Positions 1 to 4,917 of a DNA stretch of 4,917 nucleotides are shown in pieces. Each line of letters begins with the position of its first letter. The first letter of the stretch is position 1. The DNA comes from a virus (Duplodnaviria > Heunggongvirae > Uroviricota > Caudoviricetes). The stretch is from the IMG/VR virus record IMGVR_UViG_2671180814_000001. The stretch is one strand, 5' to 3'. The translations under genes were made by a program, and so were the position numbers. The notes beneath the pieces were generated by a model. That model saw only the letters and a program-made list of their open reading frames with translations. It was not told where the DNA came from and did no database searches.

Positions 1-23
1 AAGGAGTGTCCGTTAAACTCAGG

Positions 24-389
24 CTACCTCATTCTGGCGAGTCGTTTTTTGGAGTGTTCGCGGGCTTTTTCCTCCGTCATCTGAATAATCAGCATATCAG
101 CAGGATCGCAAATCACGTTGTAAATCACCCAGCCGTCAATCAGGCCGATAGTCTTGCCGGTTCGTGCCGGGCCAACAAATATCACTGCGTCGTATTCACG
201 CGAGGCCAGGCAGTTCATCGGCTCAATAACATACGGTGCCACCAGCGGATCCCACGGGACTGAGTTCCCTGCCCCCATGGGCACCCGCATATACTGAGCA
301 ACGGCATCAGCAACCCGCATTCGTCTCGGTGCGCGAAGGATATAACCTGAATCGGTTCGTGCTGCCTTTGCGGTTTCCTGATTCAGCAT
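24..389 (-). CDS. Phage terminase large subunit (lambda gpA-like), N-terminal ATPase fragment; 121 aa, far shorter than the ~640 aa family norm, so probably truncated or a pseudogene
   Basis: ORF with ATG at 387-389 and TAG at 24-26. Walker A-like motif FVGPARTGKT, in a context that loosely parallels the lambda gpA N-terminus as recalled. The start overlaps the stop of the upstream Nu1-like gene (TAATG), matching the lambdoid Nu1-A arrangement. Only 23 nt remain to the window edge, so a frameshifted continuation cannot be assessed. Confidence 0.65.
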   Translation of the reverse strand: MLNQETAKAARTDSGYILRAPRRMRVADAVAQYMRVPMGAGNSVPWDPLVAPYVIEPMNCLASREYDAVIFVGPARTGKTIGLIDGWVIYNVICDPADMLIIQMTEEKAREHSKKRLARMR

Positions 390-883
390 TACTCCTCCTG
401 CTGTAATTCCTCCTCATCATCCGCACCTGCTTCAGTCACCCGCAGGGCTATCTGATCGCGCAGATCATCAATAATGGACTGAACACGGCTCACAGCGGCA
501 GGCTGCAGACCGCAGTCACGTTCAAGAATATCCGGTAATGTCTCCAGCACCTGCACGACCGCTTTTGCCCAGATGGCAAACTCCCGTCTGACATCACTGG
601 CCGGAATGAGTTGTGCCGTTTCCTGTTCGAACTTAAGACGCTCACGTTCAGACTGATACCAGGCTTTGCGCTCATGCGCGTCCATTTCGCCTTCTGCAAC
701 CGGCGGTGGTAATGCCAGAAATGCCGACACAATATCAACCACCCGATAAAGCTTGAGGTTGCTTTCATGCCCCCCTGCAACGGGTAGATTTTGCAGCCTT
801 GCCGCAGCAGTCTGGCGATGTACACCTGACAGTGCCGCCAGTTGACTGATATTCAGCGTCAGATTTTTTAACTCTCGATCCAT
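389..883 (-). CDS. Phage terminase small subunit / DNA packaging protein (lambda Nu1 family)
   Basis: 164-aa ORF. The N-terminal segment LNISQLAALSGVHRQTAAARLQNLPVAGG has the same pattern as the lambda Nu1 helix-turn-helix region (KKQLADIFGASIRTIQNWQEQGMPV), and the C-terminus is acidic. GGAG lies 8 nt upstream of the ATG at 881-883. It sits about 180 bp downstream of the cos-like site and directly upstream of the large terminase, with overlapping stop/start. Confidence 0.8.
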   Translation of the reverse strand: MDRELKNLTLNISQLAALSGVHRQTAAARLQNLPVAGGHESNLKLYRVVDIVSAFLALPPPVAEGEMDAHERKAWYQSERERLKFEQETAQLIPASDVRREFAIWAKAVVQVLETLPDILERDCGLQPAAVSRVQSIIDDLRDQIALRVTEAGADDEEELQQEE

Positions 884-1014
884 ACCCGCTCCAGAATGTT
901 TTAAACATGCATCTTGCGAACAACTTTAGGCAAACGGTGTTAGTGATGAACAAAAAACAATCAAAATCGACACCATAAAAATAAAACCACTGTAATATCA
1001 ATCCATTACAGTAG

Positions 1015-1075
1015 TGGTGATGACGAATGAAATTTCAAAAACTAGCCTTTTTCCGCGCCGCTCCCGCCCCGTGGC
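1015..1075 (-). other. Candidate cos site (cosN-like GC-rich core plus adjacent cosB-like sequence) of a lambda-type packaging system
   Basis: Minus-strand sequence CACGGGGCGGGAGCGGCGCGGAAAAAGGCTAGTTTTTGAAATTTCATTCGTCATCACC, compared with lambda cos as recalled from memory: ACGGGGCGGCGACCTCGCGGGTTTTCGCTATTTATGAAAATTTTCC...TTCGTCATAAC. Shared blocks are ACGGGGCGG, CGCGG, GCTA, TGAAA, TTTC and TTCGTCAT. It lies about 180 bp upstream of the Nu1-like start; the lambda spacing is about 190 bp. Confidence 0.55.
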
Positions 1076-1240
1076 AGGCCACCCCACCGGGAGGACCCGT
1101 CAGCCTGACAGCCATGACGAACGTCTGATACAGCGCCCTGCATGAATGACATCGGGATAATCCAGAAAGGAATAGCATCGTACCCACAAGAATCAGTGTA
1201 AGTGTCCTGTTTCTTCCACCCCCGCACAGGACTGGCGAGC

Positions 1241-1417
1241 ATGAGGGACAAACCCGCGAACCATAAACGCGGTAAAAACCCGGTGTGCATCGTTTTTGAT
1301 TATTCCCGCACACTCGCGCAGAAGGAGTTCCCCGTCGGGCTACGGTCATGGTTAATACGGGAATACGGCGACGATACAGCGCATGATGTGTCAGGCTTGA
1401 ATACCTTTATCCTTTAA
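1241..1417 (+). CDS. Hypothetical small protein (58 aa from ATG 1241; the ORF track starts at GTG 1202), opposite orientation to the late genes
   Basis: AGGA at 1228-1231 sits 9 nt before ATG 1241. A hairpin with a T-run on the plus strand follows about 50 nt downstream (1464-1490). The position between Rz and cos, on the opposite strand, is where lambda carries bor, but the protein is not Bor-like and I do not recognise it. Confidence 0.25.
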   Translation: MRDKPANHKRGKNPVCIVFDYSRTLAQKEFPVGLRSWLIREYGDDTAHDVSGLNTFIL

Positions 1418-1463
1418 AAGGGATATCAGTTAAGTTATCCCGTGTAGGGTATAAGCCATTATC

Positions 1464-1490
1464 AAAGCCACTCTGTAGGAAGTGGCTTTT
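1464..1490 (+). terminator. Candidate intrinsic terminator hairpin (stem AGCCACT/AGTGGCT, 8-nt loop, TTTT tail; A-run on the other side, so possibly bidirectional)
   Basis: 7-bp perfect stem at 1466-1472 and 1481-1487, followed by TTTT at 1487-1490. Confidence 0.4.
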
Positions 1491-1501
1491 GTAATGGCAA
1501 T

Positions 1502-1525
1502 AAAAAGCCCCGCGAATGCGAGGCT
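1502..1525 (-). terminator. Rho-independent terminator for the minus-strand (late) transcript
   Basis: Minus-strand RNA AGCCUCGC-AUUC-GCGGGGCU followed by UUUUU: an 8-bp GC-rich stem with one G-U pair. A near-identical element follows the other Rz copy at 3478-3500. Confidence 0.5.
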
Positions 1526-1558
1526 AAATCCTGGTATTTGTAATGACTGGCTCTTATC

Positions 1559-1702
1559 TCAACGCAGCCCCTTACCGCGCGCAAAATGCTCAATATCAAG
1601 CATCAGCAATGAGATGTTTAATCTGGATTCACTCCAGAAGTGAGCACCACCCTGTCTACAGAGCCAGATGTGAAGGATGATGAGTAAAATTATCGCTATC
1701 AT
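1559..1702 (-). CDS. Possible small membrane protein (47 aa, [47 protein letters not shown]), translationally coupled to Rz
   Basis: ATG at 1700-1702 overlaps the Rz stop at 1699-1701 (ATGA). The N-terminal 14 residues are strongly hydrophobic. The ORF ends about 35 nt before the terminator at 1502-1525. It is below the ORF-track length cut-off and was found by manual translation. It is absent from the equivalent position after the second Rz copy. Confidence 0.25.
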
Positions 1703-2166
1703 CGAAGGCATTGCGTCCTGATGTATTCCTGAAGCGTTCTCAGTGCTGTTTGGTCGCGGATAATTCCGTCCCGGATACCGAGAACGTTTCGTCCAGCAAC
1801 TGGAGAGAGTTCGACGGTGGCATCATTGCCCATGCCGGAGGCGCTGGAGGTTTCGGCTGAGGATGGCACAGGGCATTTTCCTTTGACGAGCACCCGACCA
1901 CCATTATCAAGCTTGCGCCGAAGAGCATCATTTTCAGCTTTCGCATCAGCTAACTCCTTCGTGTATTTAGCATCGAGTGCATCAGCATCACGCTGGCGCT
2001 GCTGCATGTCAGTAATGGTTGCGTTCGCCAGCTTCAGTTCTCTTGCGTTTTTGTCGCGCTGCTCTTTGTAGGTAATGGCGTTATCACGGTAATGATTAAC
2101 AGCCCATGACAGGCGGACGATGATGCAGATAACCAGAGCGGAGATAATCGCGGTGACTCTGCTCAT
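1699..2166 (-). CDS. Rz: Rz i-spanin (inner-membrane spanin subunit), lambda type
   Basis: The N-terminus [34 protein letters not shown] (TM helix) followed by a coiled-coil-like region matches lambda/DLP12 Rz as recalled. ATG at 2164-2166 overlaps the upstream endolysin stop (ATGA). A C-terminal Cys is present. Confidence 0.85.
1740..1946 (-). CDS. Rz1: Rz1 o-spanin lipoprotein, embedded in the +1 frame of Rz, lambda type
   Basis: [21 protein letters not shown] has a lipobox (VVGC) and is followed by the proline-rich [16 protein letters not shown]. It resembles lambda Rz1 (MLKLKMML...VVGC...PPPPPAW) and lies entirely inside Rz. Confidence 0.8.
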
Positions 2167-2281
2167 TGCTGCCCCCACAAACAGACTTCACGCTCAATCT
2201 CACGACGGGTCATCAGCCCTTTCCATTGCTTACCGCCAGCATATGTCCAGCGACGTAGCTGGTCACATGCGCCTTTGATAT
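2163..2281 (-). CDS. R: 3' end (last 38 codons) of a second endolysin gene, interrupted upstream by the N gap
   Basis: Translates to [38 protein letters not shown], almost identical to the C-terminus of the complete endolysin at 3987-4484. The reading frame runs directly into the N-run at 2282. Confidence 0.8.
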
Positions 2282-2465
2282 NNNNNNNNNNNNNNNNNNN
2301 NNNNNNNNNNNNNNNNNNNNNNNNNNNNNNNNNNNNNNNNNNNNNNNNNNNNNNNNNNNNNNNNNNNNNNNNNNNNNNNNNNNNNNNNNNNNNNNNNNNN
2401 NNNNNNNNNNNNNNNNNNNNNNNNNNNNNNNNNNNNNNNNNNNNNNNNNNNNNNNNNNNNNNNNN
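2282..2465. other. Assembly/scaffold gap (184 N)
   Basis: Uninterrupted run of N. It begins inside the endolysin reading frame, so real sequence is missing here (at least the 5' part of the endolysin and probably a holin). Confidence 0.95.
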
Positions 2466-2578
2466 GTTATTTCCCCACTTACTGGCTTGGGTTGTTTCGT
2501 GGTACTGCCGTTAACTGGTGGCCCAGAATAAATTCCGGTTTCATTATCAAGCCCACCCGTAAATGGGCTTTGTAATGG

Positions 2579-2836
2579 CTACTTCGCTTTTGCTTCCGCT
2601 CGCTTACGCCGGCGCTCTTCTTTCCTCTCGGCTTTTGCCATGTCCATGAATGCCTGCATGATCGAGTTCCGCATCATGTAGCTAACAAAGTGATGATTGA
2701 CACAGCCGTTGAGGCGCAGCTGCTCGCCAAACTCATCCACCGAGGCCAATGCTTCCATCATGCCCTTCTCGCCTTTCATGAACTCTGAGAAGTCGCGCCC
2801 CGCTCTGGAGGCGCATTCAATAACATGATCACTCAT
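2579..2836 (-). CDS. Hypothetical 85-aa protein with an acidic N-terminal half and a strongly basic/charged C-terminal tail; downstream partner of the KilA-N-like gene
   Basis: ATG at 2834-2836 overlaps the stop of the upstream ORF (ATGA). C-terminal tail AKAERKEERRRKRAEAKAK. A hairpin (AAGCCCA/TGGGCTT, 2549-2570) lies 9 nt past the stop. I do not recognise the family. Confidence 0.5.
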   Translation of the reverse strand: MSDHVIECASRAGRDFSEFMKGEKGMMEALASVDEFGEQLRLNGCVNHHFVSYMMRNSIMQAFMDMAKAERKEERRRKRAEAKAK

Positions 2837-3330
2837 CCCGGAAGCCCGGGGATCGTAATCTGCAGCTGGTTAGCCAGGGAGTTAATCTCAGCGACCAACA
2901 CTGGCTTCGTATAGCGCCATGCTGCCAGCCCTTGTCCGCAGAAGCTCGCCATGTCTTTCTTCTGGTCAAATTCATGACATTTCATGTTGAGCTGCGCACT
3001 TAAGCTGTTGCGATGCTGAAGTTCTCCGGTGAAGTAGTCATCGAGGACTTTATAGGCCGCGTACTTGAACCCGGGGTTTAACCAAGCCGCATAATCGTAA
3101 GCAACAAACTTCCCGCCATATGTTCCACCGTGTACACCGCGCTCAGTAAAAACCACAGATTCGTGGTTTTTCTCCAGCTCGGCTAAGAACTCTTTGGTCT
3201 GCTTGTTTCGCAGGTAGTGGTAAGGCGATTCAGATTCACTTTTACCACTGGCTTTCCACATATCAGTGAGGCAGATCATGCCATCTTCACCGATACGAAT
3301 TGGTTGATTGAAGAGGGTTAATGATTTCAT
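2833..3330 (-). CDS. KilA-N-domain-like protein (165 aa), function unknown
   Basis: The N-terminal ~110 aa fit the KilA-N pattern as I recall it: LFNQPIRIGEDGMICLTDMWKASGK ... EFLAEL ... GGTYGGKFVAYDYAAWLNPGFKYAAYKVL. The C-terminal ~55 aa are unassigned. ATG at 3328-3330; a weak GAG/AGG SD lies upstream. Preceded by the tandem terminators that follow the complete lysis cassette. Confidence 0.6.
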   Translation of the reverse strand: MKSLTLFNQPIRIGEDGMICLTDMWKASGKSESESPYHYLRNKQTKEFLAELEKNHESVVFTERGVHGGTYGGKFVAYDYAAWLNPGFKYAAYKVLDDYFTGELQHRNSLSAQLNMKCHEFDQKKDMASFCGQGLAAWRYTKPVLVAEINSLANQLQITIPGLPG

Positions 3331-3445
3331 AGCGTGTACCTACTCTTTGAAATGAACCTTTGCCGCACAGGAAACCAGCCCACCGAGGCTCGCCAGCACT
3401 AACTGGTATCCTCAAAGGCCCATTCCAAAGGGGCAGGTTCGGTGT

Positions 3446-3470
3446 AAAAAACATGCGTTGCGGTACGCAT
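3446..3470 (-). terminator. Candidate intrinsic terminator (stem ATGCGT/ACGCAT, 6-nt loop, U6 tail on the minus strand)
   Basis: Perfect 6-bp inverted repeat at 3453-3458 and 3465-3470. On the plus strand it is preceded by AAAAAA at 3446-3451, which is the U-run on the minus-strand RNA. Confidence 0.4.
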
Positions 3471-3477
3471 TTATTGC

Positions 3478-3500
3478 AAAAAGCCCCGCATCGCGAGGCT
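3478..3500 (-). terminator. Rho-independent terminator directly downstream of Rz (same module as 1502-1525)
   Basis: Minus-strand RNA AGCCUCGC-GAU-GCGGGGCU followed by UUUUU. It lies about 30 nt after the Rz stop and is near-identical in sequence to the element at 1502-1525. Confidence 0.5.
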
Positions 3501-3531
3501 CATTAAATGGACTTTGTGATTTGCAAAAAAA

Positions 3532-3990
3532 TTATTTCAGGCATTGCGTCCTGATGTATTCCTGCAGGTAGTTAACCTGCGCGGTTATCTTGTCGATTCC
3601 ACTTCGGAGACGGTAATAATTGAGTTCAGCATCTGCTGTAAGTCCTGGGCTTTCTCCATCGCCCATGCCGCTGGCTCCGGTCGTTGACTTTGCACAGGTG
3701 GCGGCGACTTGCAGGCGCTTACGCCCAGCAGAAACATCAGCACGGAGACTTTCGATAGTCGCGTTAGCATCAGCAAGCTCCTTTATGTATCTTGCGTCGA
3801 GTTCTGCTACATCACGTTGACGCTTCCGCATGTCAGCGATGGTGGCGTTCGCCTTCTCCAGTTCACTGGCCTTGTTATCGCGCTGCTCTTTGTAGGCGAT
3901 TGCGTTATCACGGTAATGATTAACAGCCAATGACAGGCAGACGATGATGCAGATAACCAGAGCGGAGATAATCGCGGTTACTCTGCTCAT
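3532..3990 (-). CDS. Rz: Rz i-spanin (second variant; C-terminal half diverged from the copy at 1699-2166)
   Basis: [35 protein letters not shown]-terminal TM helix followed by a charged coiled-coil-like region. GGGGGA SD before ATG 3988-3990. The ATG overlaps the endolysin stop (ATGA). Rz1 is embedded. Confidence 0.85.
3585..3770 (-). CDS. Rz1: Rz1 o-spanin lipoprotein, embedded in the +1 frame of Rz (second variant)
   Basis: From ATG 3768-3770: [20 protein letters not shown] (signal peptide with lipobox Cys) followed by the proline-rich [16 protein letters not shown]. Entirely inside Rz. Confidence 0.75.
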
Positions 3991-4484
3991 TGTTTCCCCC
4001 ACAAACAGACTTCACGCTCAATCTCACGGCGAGTCATCAGTCCTTTCCATTGATTACCGCCAGCGTATGTCCAGCGCCGTAGCTGATCACATGCGCCTTT
4101 AATATCACCCTGGTTTATTTTGCGAAGAAGCGTCGATGTTCTGAAATTGCCAGCGCCCACGTTGTAAACGAACGAGTAAAGAGCGCCGCGCGTTGTTTCC
4201 GGTATATCGACTTTGATGTACGGGTTAATTTGTCTGGCGACAGTGGCAAGGTCTTTATTCAGGAGAGCTTTGCACTCTGCTTCGGTATACGTTTTACCGG
4301 GAATGATGTCTTTTCCTGTATGCCCGTAACATACAGTCCATACACCAACTATGTCTTTGTAAGGATTATGTCTCACACCTTCCAGACCATCGTTACCACC
4401 TGGGCCAGTGATTAACACAGATGCTATAGCAATAGCCCCGCCACCAATAGCAGCAGCAACAGCTTTTCGTAATGATGGAGGCAT
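3987..4484 (-). CDS. R: SAR endolysin (phage-21 R / DLP12 RrrD-type lysozyme with an N-terminal signal-anchor-release domain)
   Basis: 165 aa. [28 protein letters not shown] is a Gly/Ala-rich weakly hydrophobic SAR segment. It is followed by a T4-lysozyme-like catalytic region (LEGV...YKD...VWT). Near-identical to the phage 21 R protein as recalled. The start overlaps the holin stop (TAATG). Confidence 0.9.
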
Positions 4485-4699
4485 TATCCACCTCTCGCAG
4501 CCTTGCGCTTATCTTCTTTAATCTTGAAATAAAGGTTTGTCAGGTACGTCAGCAGGCCAAATACCAGGCTACCCAGCACTCCAATTGCCGCCCACTGTGA
4601 GGGCGTGACTTTATCTAGCAGCTGTAAAAACCAGTACCCGGCACTACCTGCTGAGGTGCCATAGGCGACACCCGTTGTTAACTTATCCATGGATTTCAT
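4484..4699 (-). CDS. S: Pinholin, S21 family (class II holin, 71 aa) with a dual-start motif
   Basis: [71 protein letters not shown]: two TM segments and a charged C-terminus. Met1-Lys-Ser-Met4 is the antiholin/holin dual start. A strong SD (GAGGTGGGG) precedes the ATG. Near-identical to phage 21 S / EssD as recalled. Confidence 0.9.
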
Positions 4700-4811
4700 A
4701 ACCCCACCTCGCAGACAAAGCGGGTGTAAATTGAGGGAATACTACGAAACGTAACAGACTCGGAGTCAGTGAATAACTCAGGTATTGGGTTATCAGCTAA
4801 TATCGAGACTC

Positions 4812-4844
4812 AAAAAATGGAAAAACCCGCTCGACGGCGGGTTT
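4812..4844 (-). terminator. Candidate tR' (terminator of the short late-promoter transcript, the target of Q antitermination)
   Basis: Minus-strand RNA AAACCCGC-CGUCGA-GCGGGUUU followed by UUCCAUUUUUU: a perfect 8-bp stem with a U-rich tail, about 110 nt upstream of the holin start. Confidence 0.55.
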
Positions 4845-4874
4845 AAGCTGTGTGACGAAGTAACCACTCTTAAC

Positions 4875-4903
4875 AGCATAACCAATTTTGGTGATGCTGC
4901 CAA
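4875..4903 (-). promoter_or_regulatory. Candidate sigma70 late promoter (pR'-like)
   Basis: On the minus strand: TTGGCA (-35, 4898-4903), a 17-nt spacer, and TATGCT (-10, 4875-4880). The predicted start is about 55 nt upstream of the terminator T-run. The Q gene would lie beyond the right edge of the window. Confidence 0.35.
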
Positions 4904-4917
4904 CTTACTGATTTAGT

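What the first reader, a model, noticed from the sequence alone, without database searches (positions are those of the whole stretch)
24..389. Large terminase ends after 121 aa, suggesting a packaging-defective (cryptic) prophage
Seen in the sequence: the gpA-like ORF has a proper start coupled to the Nu1-like gene and an N-terminal Walker A-like motif (GPARTGKT), but hits TAG at 24-26. Lambda-family large terminases are about 640 aa. Only one reading frame stays open to the window edge (...LSLTDTP), so a frameshift is possible. Inference: this is either a genuine inactivating mutation, as seen in domesticated prophages such as DLP12, or a sequencing error. Lysis, spanin and accessory genes would then be retained in a prophage that cannot package DNA.
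Basis: partly seen in the sequence, partly recalled or inferred. Interest (0 to 1): 0.45.

Follow-up and report, generated by a model that had tools for sequence, protein, structure and literature searches.

The report
Terminase gene cut by IS600
The short "large terminase" gene is real, but it is cut off by a copy of the mobile element IS600, whose first bases supply the stop codon; this is the ordinary, well-documented way prophages decay in Shigella sonnei.

Summary
Window 24..389 (- strand) is a 121-aa ORF with a gpA-type terminase ATPase N-terminus and a GPARTGKT Walker A motif, start-coupled to the small-terminase gene.

The cause is not a point mutation, a frameshift or a sequencing error. 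Residues 1-119 are 100% identical to the intact 700-aa large terminase of phage mEp460. Homology stops abruptly at window base 32. Bases 31..1 (- strand) are the first 31 bp of the left terminal inverted repeat of IS600 (TGAGGTAGCCTGAG...). That repeat supplies codons 120-121 (Met-Arg) and the TAG. The frame "open to the window edge" is also IS600 sequence.

The window looks like a short-read scaffold. It ends in IS600 on the left and IS1 on the right, and has a 184-N gap in the middle.

The same 121-aa product occurs on 122 contigs named Shigella sonnei. In the complete genome of strain 53G, a full 1264-bp IS600 joins terminase codon 120 to the middle of a tail-fibre gene, followed by IS1 and sitDCBA. 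There is no target-site duplication. So the head and tail genes are deleted, not shifted into another frame.

The "cryptic prophage" idea is right; the proposed mechanism and part of the gene inventory are wrong. This is ordinary and already known.

The parts
32..389 (-). 5' fragment of a gpA-type large terminase gene: codons 1-119 plus the first base of codon 120.
   Evidence: Pfam GpA_ATPase E=4.5e-22, profile positions 2-80 of 247. Residues 1-119 are 100% identical to the 700-aa mEp460 TerL. DNA homology to intact phages ends at window 32.
150..173 (-). Walker A motif GPARTGKT, residues 73-80 of the fragment.
   Evidence: Read directly from the translation. It matches the GxxxxGK[ST] consensus (established knowledge).
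1..31 (-). First 31 bp of the IS600 left terminal inverted repeat (TGAGGTAGCCTGAGTTTAACGGACACTCCTT). It supplies codons 120-121 (ATG AGG, sharing the A at base 32) and the TAG stop at 24..26.
   Evidence: 31/31 identical to the start of complete 1264-bp IS600 copies in L001, L003 and L004. The L003 copy is 100% identical to elements annotated 'IS3-like element IS600 family transposase'.
389..883 (-). Intact small-terminase-like gene (DUF1441, 164 aa), translationally coupled to the terminase fragment.
   Evidence: Pfam DUF1441 E=2.7e-41. The matching gene is annotated 'terminase small subunit' in mEp460 and related phages.
1699..2281 (-). Rest of the same contig piece: Rz (with the embedded Rz1 ORF at 1740..1946) and the last ~100 bp of the endolysin gene. 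This is the only lysis material physically linked to the truncated terminase.
   Evidence: Pfam Phage_lysis E=3.1e-30. Window 1..2281 is 99.96% identical to S. sonnei 53G locus L003.
2282..2465 (.). Run of 184 N separating two pieces that are not adjacent in the reference genome.
   Evidence: N run located. The flanks map to 53G at about 1.94 Mb and about 2.66 Mb.
4890..4917 (+). 28 bp of an IS1 terminus at the right end of the window. It is not part of the terminase feature, but it shows that the window is bounded by IS ends on both sides.
   Evidence: Window sequence GGTGATGCTGCCAACTTACTGATTTAGT continues into a full IS1 in L018. IS1 is annotated at the same sequence in phage records.

Best explanation
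The large terminase gene of a lambdoid prophage (mEp460-type packaging module) is truncated after codon 119 by a copy of the IS3-family insertion sequence IS600. The left inverted repeat of IS600 begins at window base 31 (- strand) and contributes two foreign codons (Met-Arg) and an in-frame TAG. The window stops 31 bp into the element, probably because a short-read assembler could not extend through a multi-copy repeat (inference).

The locus is the one found in Shigella sonnei. There the single IS600 joins terminase codon 120 directly to about codon 200 of a tail-fibre gene at the far right end of the same prophage. Everything between is missing: the rest of the terminase, the portal, and the head and tail genes, roughly 20 kb by comparison with a full-length prophage at the same chromosomal site.

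The copy has no 3-bp target duplication. The most likely origin (inferred) is therefore homologous recombination between two directly oriented IS600 copies, one in the terminase gene and one in the tail-fibre gene. An IS600-promoted adjacent deletion is the alternative.

The remaining stub keeps Walker A but lacks Walker B, the rest of the ATPase domain and the nuclease domain. It is a pseudogene in a packaging-dead prophage remnant.
For: Shown:
- Residues 1-119 are 100% identical to the 700-aa mEp460 TerL. The DNA match to 12 intact phages ends at window 32.
- Window 31..1 equals the IS600 left repeat 31/31. The full element in L003 (10359-11622, 1264 bp) is 100% identical to annotated IS600 in S. 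sonnei plasmids.
- Window 1..2281 is 99.96% identical to HE616528.1, which is S. sonnei 53G (PMC5447701).
- The exact 121-aa product is on 122 contigs named S. sonnei and in 203 index blocks, 7 of which hold contigs longer than 1 Mb.
- In L003 and L004 the order is TerL' - IS600 - 343 bp - IS1 - DUF4376 - sitDCBA - usp - porin.
- The 343 bp is 99.4% identical to nt 599-940 of a 'prophage tail fiber N-terminal domain-containing protein' gene. That gene lies next to DUF4376 and sitDCBA-uspF-ompN in EIEC strain CFSAN029787, in the same orientation.
- tblastn finds no TerL residues 120-700 within 10 kb.
- This copy is flanked by GAA on the left and GCC on the right. Two other IS600 copies show 3-bp duplications, GAA/GAA and CCA/CCA.

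Background: IS600 is one of five IS expanded in all Shigella species, and IS disrupt genes and mediate deletions there (PMC7373316).
Against: The window holds only 31 bp of IS600. What lies beyond it in this particular isolate is inferred from near-identical complete genomes, not seen. I could not scan a whole S. sonnei chromosome, so a displaced 3' terminase fragment elsewhere in the genome is not excluded. The structural module of the ancestral prophage is unknown: the full-length EIEC prophage at the same site has a different packaging module. The deletion size and the claim that both breakpoints lay in one prophage are therefore inferences. Draft assemblies L005-L007 show other sequences after IS600, but each join carries a single N, so I treat those joins as scaffolding artefacts.
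Confidence: 0.92

Rival explanations
1. A point nonsense mutation or a frameshift inside an otherwise full-length terminase gene, with the remainder lying left of the window in another frame.
For: A TAG ends the ORF at 24..26, and one frame is open to the window edge.
Against: Similarity to intact terminases does not merely change frame. It ends completely at base 32 and is replaced by 31/31 bases of the IS600 terminus. The open frame is only 9 codons long, follows its own TGA, and is IS600 sequence. No terminase remainder follows in the complete genomes.
Confidence: 0.01
2. A sequencing or assembly error: the real gene is uninterrupted, and the IS600 end was wrongly attached at the contig end.
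For: The junction lies 31 bp from a contig or scaffold end. The window does contain one suspect join, the 184-N gap.
Against: The identical junction and the identical 121-aa product occur in independent assemblies, including the complete chromosomes HE616528.1 and CP044191.1. There are 122 contigs in all.
Confidence: 0.02
3. A simple IS600 insertion: the terminase gene is split but otherwise complete, with codons 120-700 and the morphogenesis genes directly beyond the 1264-bp element in this isolate.
For: The window cannot show what follows IS600. Simple insertions of IS600 with 3-bp duplications are common.
Against: In both complete genomes carrying this junction, the far side of IS600 is a tail-fibre gene fragment with no GAA duplication. 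The window is 99.96% identical to that locus.
Confidence: 0.04
4. Terminases of this family are naturally split at this point into two polypeptides.
For: None found.
Against: Twelve phage records read straight through the site, and the mEp460 gene there is a single 700-aa ORF. In E. coli, 3594 of 5426 complete genomes match the query; the 20 best rows match bases 1-119 at 100% up to the breakpoint and are all annotated as large terminase. The foreign residues and the stop are IS600 sequence.
Confidence: 0.005

Closest known systems
Large terminase (gpA family) of Enterobacteria phage mEp460 and relatives (phi458, vB_EcoS-569R4, Ayreon)
   Same: Residues 1-119 are 100% identical in protein, with 4 synonymous DNA differences in 357 nt. 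The upstream small-terminase gene and the start coupling are the same.
   Different: The phage gene is 700 aa with GpA_ATPase plus GpA_nuclease domains (L006). Here only profile positions 2-80 of the ATPase domain remain.
IS600 (IS3 family, 1264 bp) insertions and IS-mediated deletions in Shigella genomes (PMC7373316)
   Same: Identical terminal repeat. In S. sonnei complete genomes the element at this junction is a full IS600 with a 100-aa orfA and a 272-aa orfB. It disrupts a gene and borders a deletion, as described for Shigella in general.
   Different: This copy lacks the 3-bp target duplication seen at other copies, which marks a secondary rearrangement. I did not find this particular junction discussed in the papers searched.
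Cryptic lambdoid prophages of E. coli K-12 such as Rac and DLP12 (established knowledge)
   Same: It is a prophage remnant that keeps regulatory and lysis genes but has lost its morphogenesis genes. Its right flank (uspF-ompN-ydbK side) is the Rac neighbourhood. The full-length EIEC counterpart sits between ttcA-intR and sitDCBA-uspF-ompN.
   Different: The packaging module is mEp460-type. The remnant carries sitABCD at its right end and is riddled with IS1 and IS600. Here the terminase stub is defined by an IS junction.
Defective Stx prophage of Shigella dysenteriae type 1 (PMC7819885; abstract only, as listed)
   Same: Another defective prophage in an IS-rich Shigella genome that still carries cargo of use to the host (abstract).
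   Different: It is a different prophage at a different locus in a different species. I did not compare the sequences.

Membership tests
gpA-type phage large terminase (Pfam GpA_ATPase PF05876 + GpA_nuclease PF20454) | N-terminal ATPase domain with a Walker A P-loop | tested here: met
   PF05876 E=4.5e-22. GPARTGKT at residues 73-80.
gpA-type phage large terminase (Pfam GpA_ATPase PF05876 + GpA_nuclease PF20454) | Complete ATPase domain (Walker B and the rest of the 247-position profile) | tested here: not met
   The match stops at profile position 80 of 247 because the ORF ends there.
gpA-type phage large terminase (Pfam GpA_ATPase PF05876 + GpA_nuclease PF20454) | C-terminal nuclease domain | tested here: not met
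   Absent from the ORF. No TerL residues 120-700 lie within 10 kb in complete genomes. The intact 700-aa homologue has PF20454 (L006).
gpA-type phage large terminase (Pfam GpA_ATPase PF05876 + GpA_nuclease PF20454) | Gene lies immediately downstream of the small-terminase gene | tested here: met
   TAATG overlap with the DUF1441 gene at base 389. The arrangement is the same in mEp460.
IS600 (IS3 family) | Terminal inverted repeat beginning TG..., identical to IS600 | tested here: met
   31/31 bases match. The left and right repeats are compared.
IS600 (IS3 family) | Full 1264-bp element with orfA and orfB transposase genes | tested here: met
   Not visible in the window, which ends after 31 bp. 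At the same junction in L003 and L004 the element is 1264 bp with a 100-aa orfA and a 272-aa orfB. It is 100% identical to annotated IS600.
IS600 (IS3 family) | 3-bp direct target duplication flanking a simple insertion | tested here: not met
   Here the flanks are GAA on the left and GCC on the right, against GAA/GAA and CCA/CCA at two other copies. I read this as a deletion or recombination after insertion, not as evidence against IS600 identity.
Cryptic (defective) prophage | Loss of genes essential for particle formation and packaging | tested here: met
   In complete S. sonnei genomes the terminase stub is joined through IS600 to a tail-fibre fragment, with no portal, head or tail genes between. 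For the window's own isolate this rests on 99.96% identity to that locus.
Cryptic (defective) prophage | Inability to produce particles on induction | not testable with these tools
   This needs an induction experiment.

The most novel reading that the evidence does not exclude
The stub was not simply left behind. The intact small terminase plus the 119-residue N-terminal terminase fragment (with Walker A and, by analogy with lambda gpA, a likely small-subunit-binding end) might be kept because together they interfere with DNA packaging by superinfecting mEp460-type phages. They would form dead terminase complexes, giving a prophage-remnant defence. The only hints are that both ORFs are intact up to the junction and that the junction occurs on many S. 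sonnei contigs. Recent common ancestry explains both equally well.
Probability: 0.03. Interest if true: 0.5.

Novelty: already known. Interest (0 to 1): 0.07.

Why it matters
It matters little beyond correct annotation. The feature is one of several hundred IS junctions in a Shigella chromosome (229-348 IS insertions per reference chromosome, PMC7373316). The truncated product is already deposited and named in public S. sonnei annotations.

The practical lesson concerns the scan. An ORF that ends a few bases from a window edge in an IS-rich genome should first be checked against IS termini. A run of N can join pieces of different prophages, so gene content on either side of it should not be pooled into one element.

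Tried and rejected
- An exact 40-nt junction pattern found nothing in the GTDB species-representative genomes. This suggests S. sonnei has no representative of its own there. The window's source was found through the exact protein look-up instead.
- The junction query against 5426 complete E. coli genomes gave no top-listed match crossing the breakpoint. All 20 listed rows stop at query base 119; 2 records were flagged at 80% coverage or more and I did not inspect them. The junction appears specific to Shigella.
- The 343 bp after IS600 had no match in the phage collection, even in distant mode. It was identified only through E. coli chromosomes.
- Draft loci L005-L007 seemed to show other genes after IS600, including an intact terminase in L006. 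Each join carries a single N, so I rejected them as evidence.
- I looked for the 53G coordinates of this IS600 copy in the supplements of PMC7373316, to learn how fixed it is in the population. There were no hits.
- I considered locating the cos site from the mEp460 record. That record starts at its small-terminase CDS (base 1), so I assumed it is not opened at cos and dropped the idea without checking.
- All 4 differences between the stub and mEp460 are synonymous. I do not read this as selection on the stub, because the changes may predate the insertion or lie on the phage lineage.

Full report
**1. The observation**

On the - strand, window 389..24 is a 121-aa ORF.
- Its ATG overlaps the TAA of the preceding 164-aa gene at 389..883, read as TAATG.
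- That upstream gene is DUF1441 (E=2.7e-41) and is annotated as the small terminase subunit in related phages.
- The 121-aa product matches Pfam GpA_ATPase at E=4.5e-22, but only over profile positions 2-80 of 247.
- It carries GPARTGKT at residues 73-80.
- TAG is at 24..26.

**2. What ends the gene**

A megablast of window 1-900 against 50,697 phage records found 12 phages in which one place covers at least 80% of the query (mEp460, phi458, vB_EcoS-569R4, Ayreon and others). They match at 92.6-99.9% identity. All of these alignments stop at query base 869, which is window base 32.

In mEp460 the gene continues as one 2103-nt, 700-aa ORF. Residues 1-119 of the window ORF are 100% identical to it. 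At the breakpoint:
- the intact phage reads ...GCCAGAA|CGTTTCGCGTCAGCC...
- the window reads ...GCCAGAA|TGAGGTAGCCTGAGTTTAACGG...

The last 31-34 bases of the query instead matched unannotated places in many Stx-converting phages. Reading one of them (L001) showed a 1264-bp element that starts with exactly this sequence. It encodes a 100-aa and a 272-aa transposase ORF, ends ...CAGTACACCTCA, and is flanked by a GAA/GAA duplication. The copy at the window's own junction in Shigella is 100% identical to elements annotated "IS3-like element IS600 family transposase".

So window 31..1 is the left terminal repeat of IS600. Codons 120-121 (ATG AGG) and the TAG are IS600 sequence. The short frame open to the window edge (GSLSLTDTP, 9 codons after a TGA) is also IS600 sequence.

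**3. Where the window comes from, and why it stops there**

- The exact 121-aa product is in the public protein collection on 122 contigs, named as a Shigella sonnei terminase protein.
- It is indexed in 203 blocks, 7 of which hold contigs longer than 1 Mb.
- Window 1..2281 is 99.96% identical to HE616528.1, the chromosome of S. sonnei 53G (PMC5447701).
- The draft contigs L008-L012 that carry this gene break 62-105 bp into IS600.
- The window's right end (4890..4917) is 28 bp of an IS1 terminus.
- A run of 184 N sits at 2282..2465.

The window therefore looks like a short-read scaffold bounded by collapsed IS copies. That the ORF ends "near the window edge" is a consequence of this (inference).

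**4. What lies beyond IS600**

In two complete chromosomes (L003 = 53G; L004 = CP044191.1) the order is: terminase stub, IS600 (1264 bp), 343 bp, IS1, a DUF4376 gene, sitDCBA, usp, a porin, ydbK.
- tblastn with the 700-aa mEp460 terminase finds only residues 1-119 in these 20-kb loci.
- The 343 bp has no match in the phage collection.
- It is 99.4% identical to nt 599-940 of a 1269-nt "prophage tail fiber N-terminal domain-containing protein" gene in EIEC strain CFSAN029787. That gene has the same orientation and is followed there by the same DUF4376 gene and sitDCBA-uspF-ompN.
- The DNA after IS1 resembles the last (tail-fibre) gene of phiP27 and Rac-SA53.
- The EIEC strain carries a full-length prophage between ttcA-intR and sitD, about 21 kb from its small terminase to the equivalent tail-fibre position.
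- That prophage shares the Hok/Gef, DUF1367, DUF1364, DUF1133, holin, lysozyme, Rz backbone with the S. sonnei remnant, but has a different packaging module.

The S. sonnei IS600 is flanked by GAA on the left and GCC on the right. Two other IS600 copies show clean 3-bp duplications.

My reading is that the entire morphogenesis block between terminase codon 120 and tail-fibre codon ~200 was deleted. The most likely route is recombination between two direct IS600 copies. This last step is inferred, not shown. It fits the documented role of IS in Shigella gene loss (PMC7373316).

**5. The rest of the window is a different prophage**

Window 2466..4917 holds a holin, a lysozyme, Rz/Rz1, a KilA-N protein and an 85-aa ORF.
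- It is 99.8% identical to a 53G region at about 2.66 Mb, roughly 715 kb from the terminase stub at about 1.94 Mb.
- In 53G that second prophage goes on to an intact lambda-type Nu1 (181 aa) and gpA (641 aa).
- The two prophages share paralogous sequence around their lysis genes. That probably caused the contig breaks and possibly a wrong scaffold join.

Only Rz/Rz1 and the 3' end of the lysozyme gene are physically linked to the truncated terminase in the window. In 53G the holin and the full lysozyme gene do precede them.

**6. Rival explanations**

- A nonsense mutation or a frameshift is excluded by the abrupt switch from terminase sequence to IS600 sequence.
- A sequencing error is excluded by the recurrence of the junction in independent and complete assemblies.
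- A natural split is excluded by the uninterrupted homologues and by the E. coli matches annotated as large terminase at this point.
- A simple insertion with the rest of the gene beyond IS600 cannot be excluded from the window alone. It is contradicted by the near-identical complete genomes and by the missing target duplication.
- Draft loci L005-L007 show other genes after IS600, but each join carries a single N. I discount them.

**7. Comparison with what is known, and verdict**

The ORF is a fragment of a gpA-family large terminase, not a functional member. It meets the Walker A and synteny criteria. It fails the complete-ATPase-domain and nuclease-domain criteria.

The interrupting element is IS600. 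The locus behaves like the classical cryptic prophages (Rac, DLP12) and like other IS-degraded Shigella prophages. IS expansion, IS-disrupted pseudogenes and IS-mediated deletions are a described hallmark of Shigella genomes, and the truncated protein is already in reference annotations.

The finding is real but ordinary. The proposed mutational mechanism, the suggested search for a frameshifted remainder, and the pooling of the two lysis cassettes into one element are wrong.

Noticed in passing
window 2282..2465 and both flanks: A run of 184 N joins two pieces that map about 715 kb apart in S. sonnei 53G (about 1.94 Mb and about 2.66 Mb). The pieces come from two different prophages with paralogous lysis genes. 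The apparent duplication of Rz/Rz1 in the window is therefore not a tandem duplication and may be a scaffolding artefact.
   Followed up: partly
window 4890..4917: The right end of the window is 28 bp of an IS1 terminal repeat. Both ends of the window stop just inside IS copies, as expected for short-read contigs of an IS-rich genome.
   Followed up: yes
window 2466..4917; L018 9273-11718: The prophage that owns the holin, lysozyme, Rz and KilA-N block carries, in 53G, an intact lambda-type Nu1 (181 aa) and gpA (641 aa). They lie downstream of an IS3-family insertion, and an IS1 sits between a porin gene and the holin.
   Followed up: partly
window 1740..1946 and 3585..3776 (- strand): Both Rz genes contain an embedded out-of-frame ORF with a lipoprotein-box-like motif (VVGC and VSAC) and a proline-rich stretch, which is the usual Rz1 o-spanin arrangement.
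   Followed up: no
L003 12734-17294; L013/L014 (E. coli CFSAN029787): The sitABCD iron/manganese transporter operon lies directly at the right end of this prophage remnant, next to uspF-ompN. An EIEC strain has a full-length prophage at the same site with baseplate-type tail genes and a different terminase module, so the packaging modules at this site are mosaic.
   Followed up: partly
L006 828-1676; L012 1-9500: The identical terminase stub and IS600 junction (100% DNA identity over 358 nt) occurs behind different upstream sequence in some draft assemblies. In L006 the small-terminase gene is only 89% identical. In L012 there is a Bor-containing lysis region. This points to recombination upstream of the junction or to a mixed assembly. 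The organisms were not identified.
   Followed up: no
L003 4929-7337: In 53G the interval between the Q-like DUF1133 gene and the holin holds several nested or partial IS3-family transposase ORFs. The EIEC prophage has four tRNA genes at that position. This is further decay of the same remnant.
   Followed up: no
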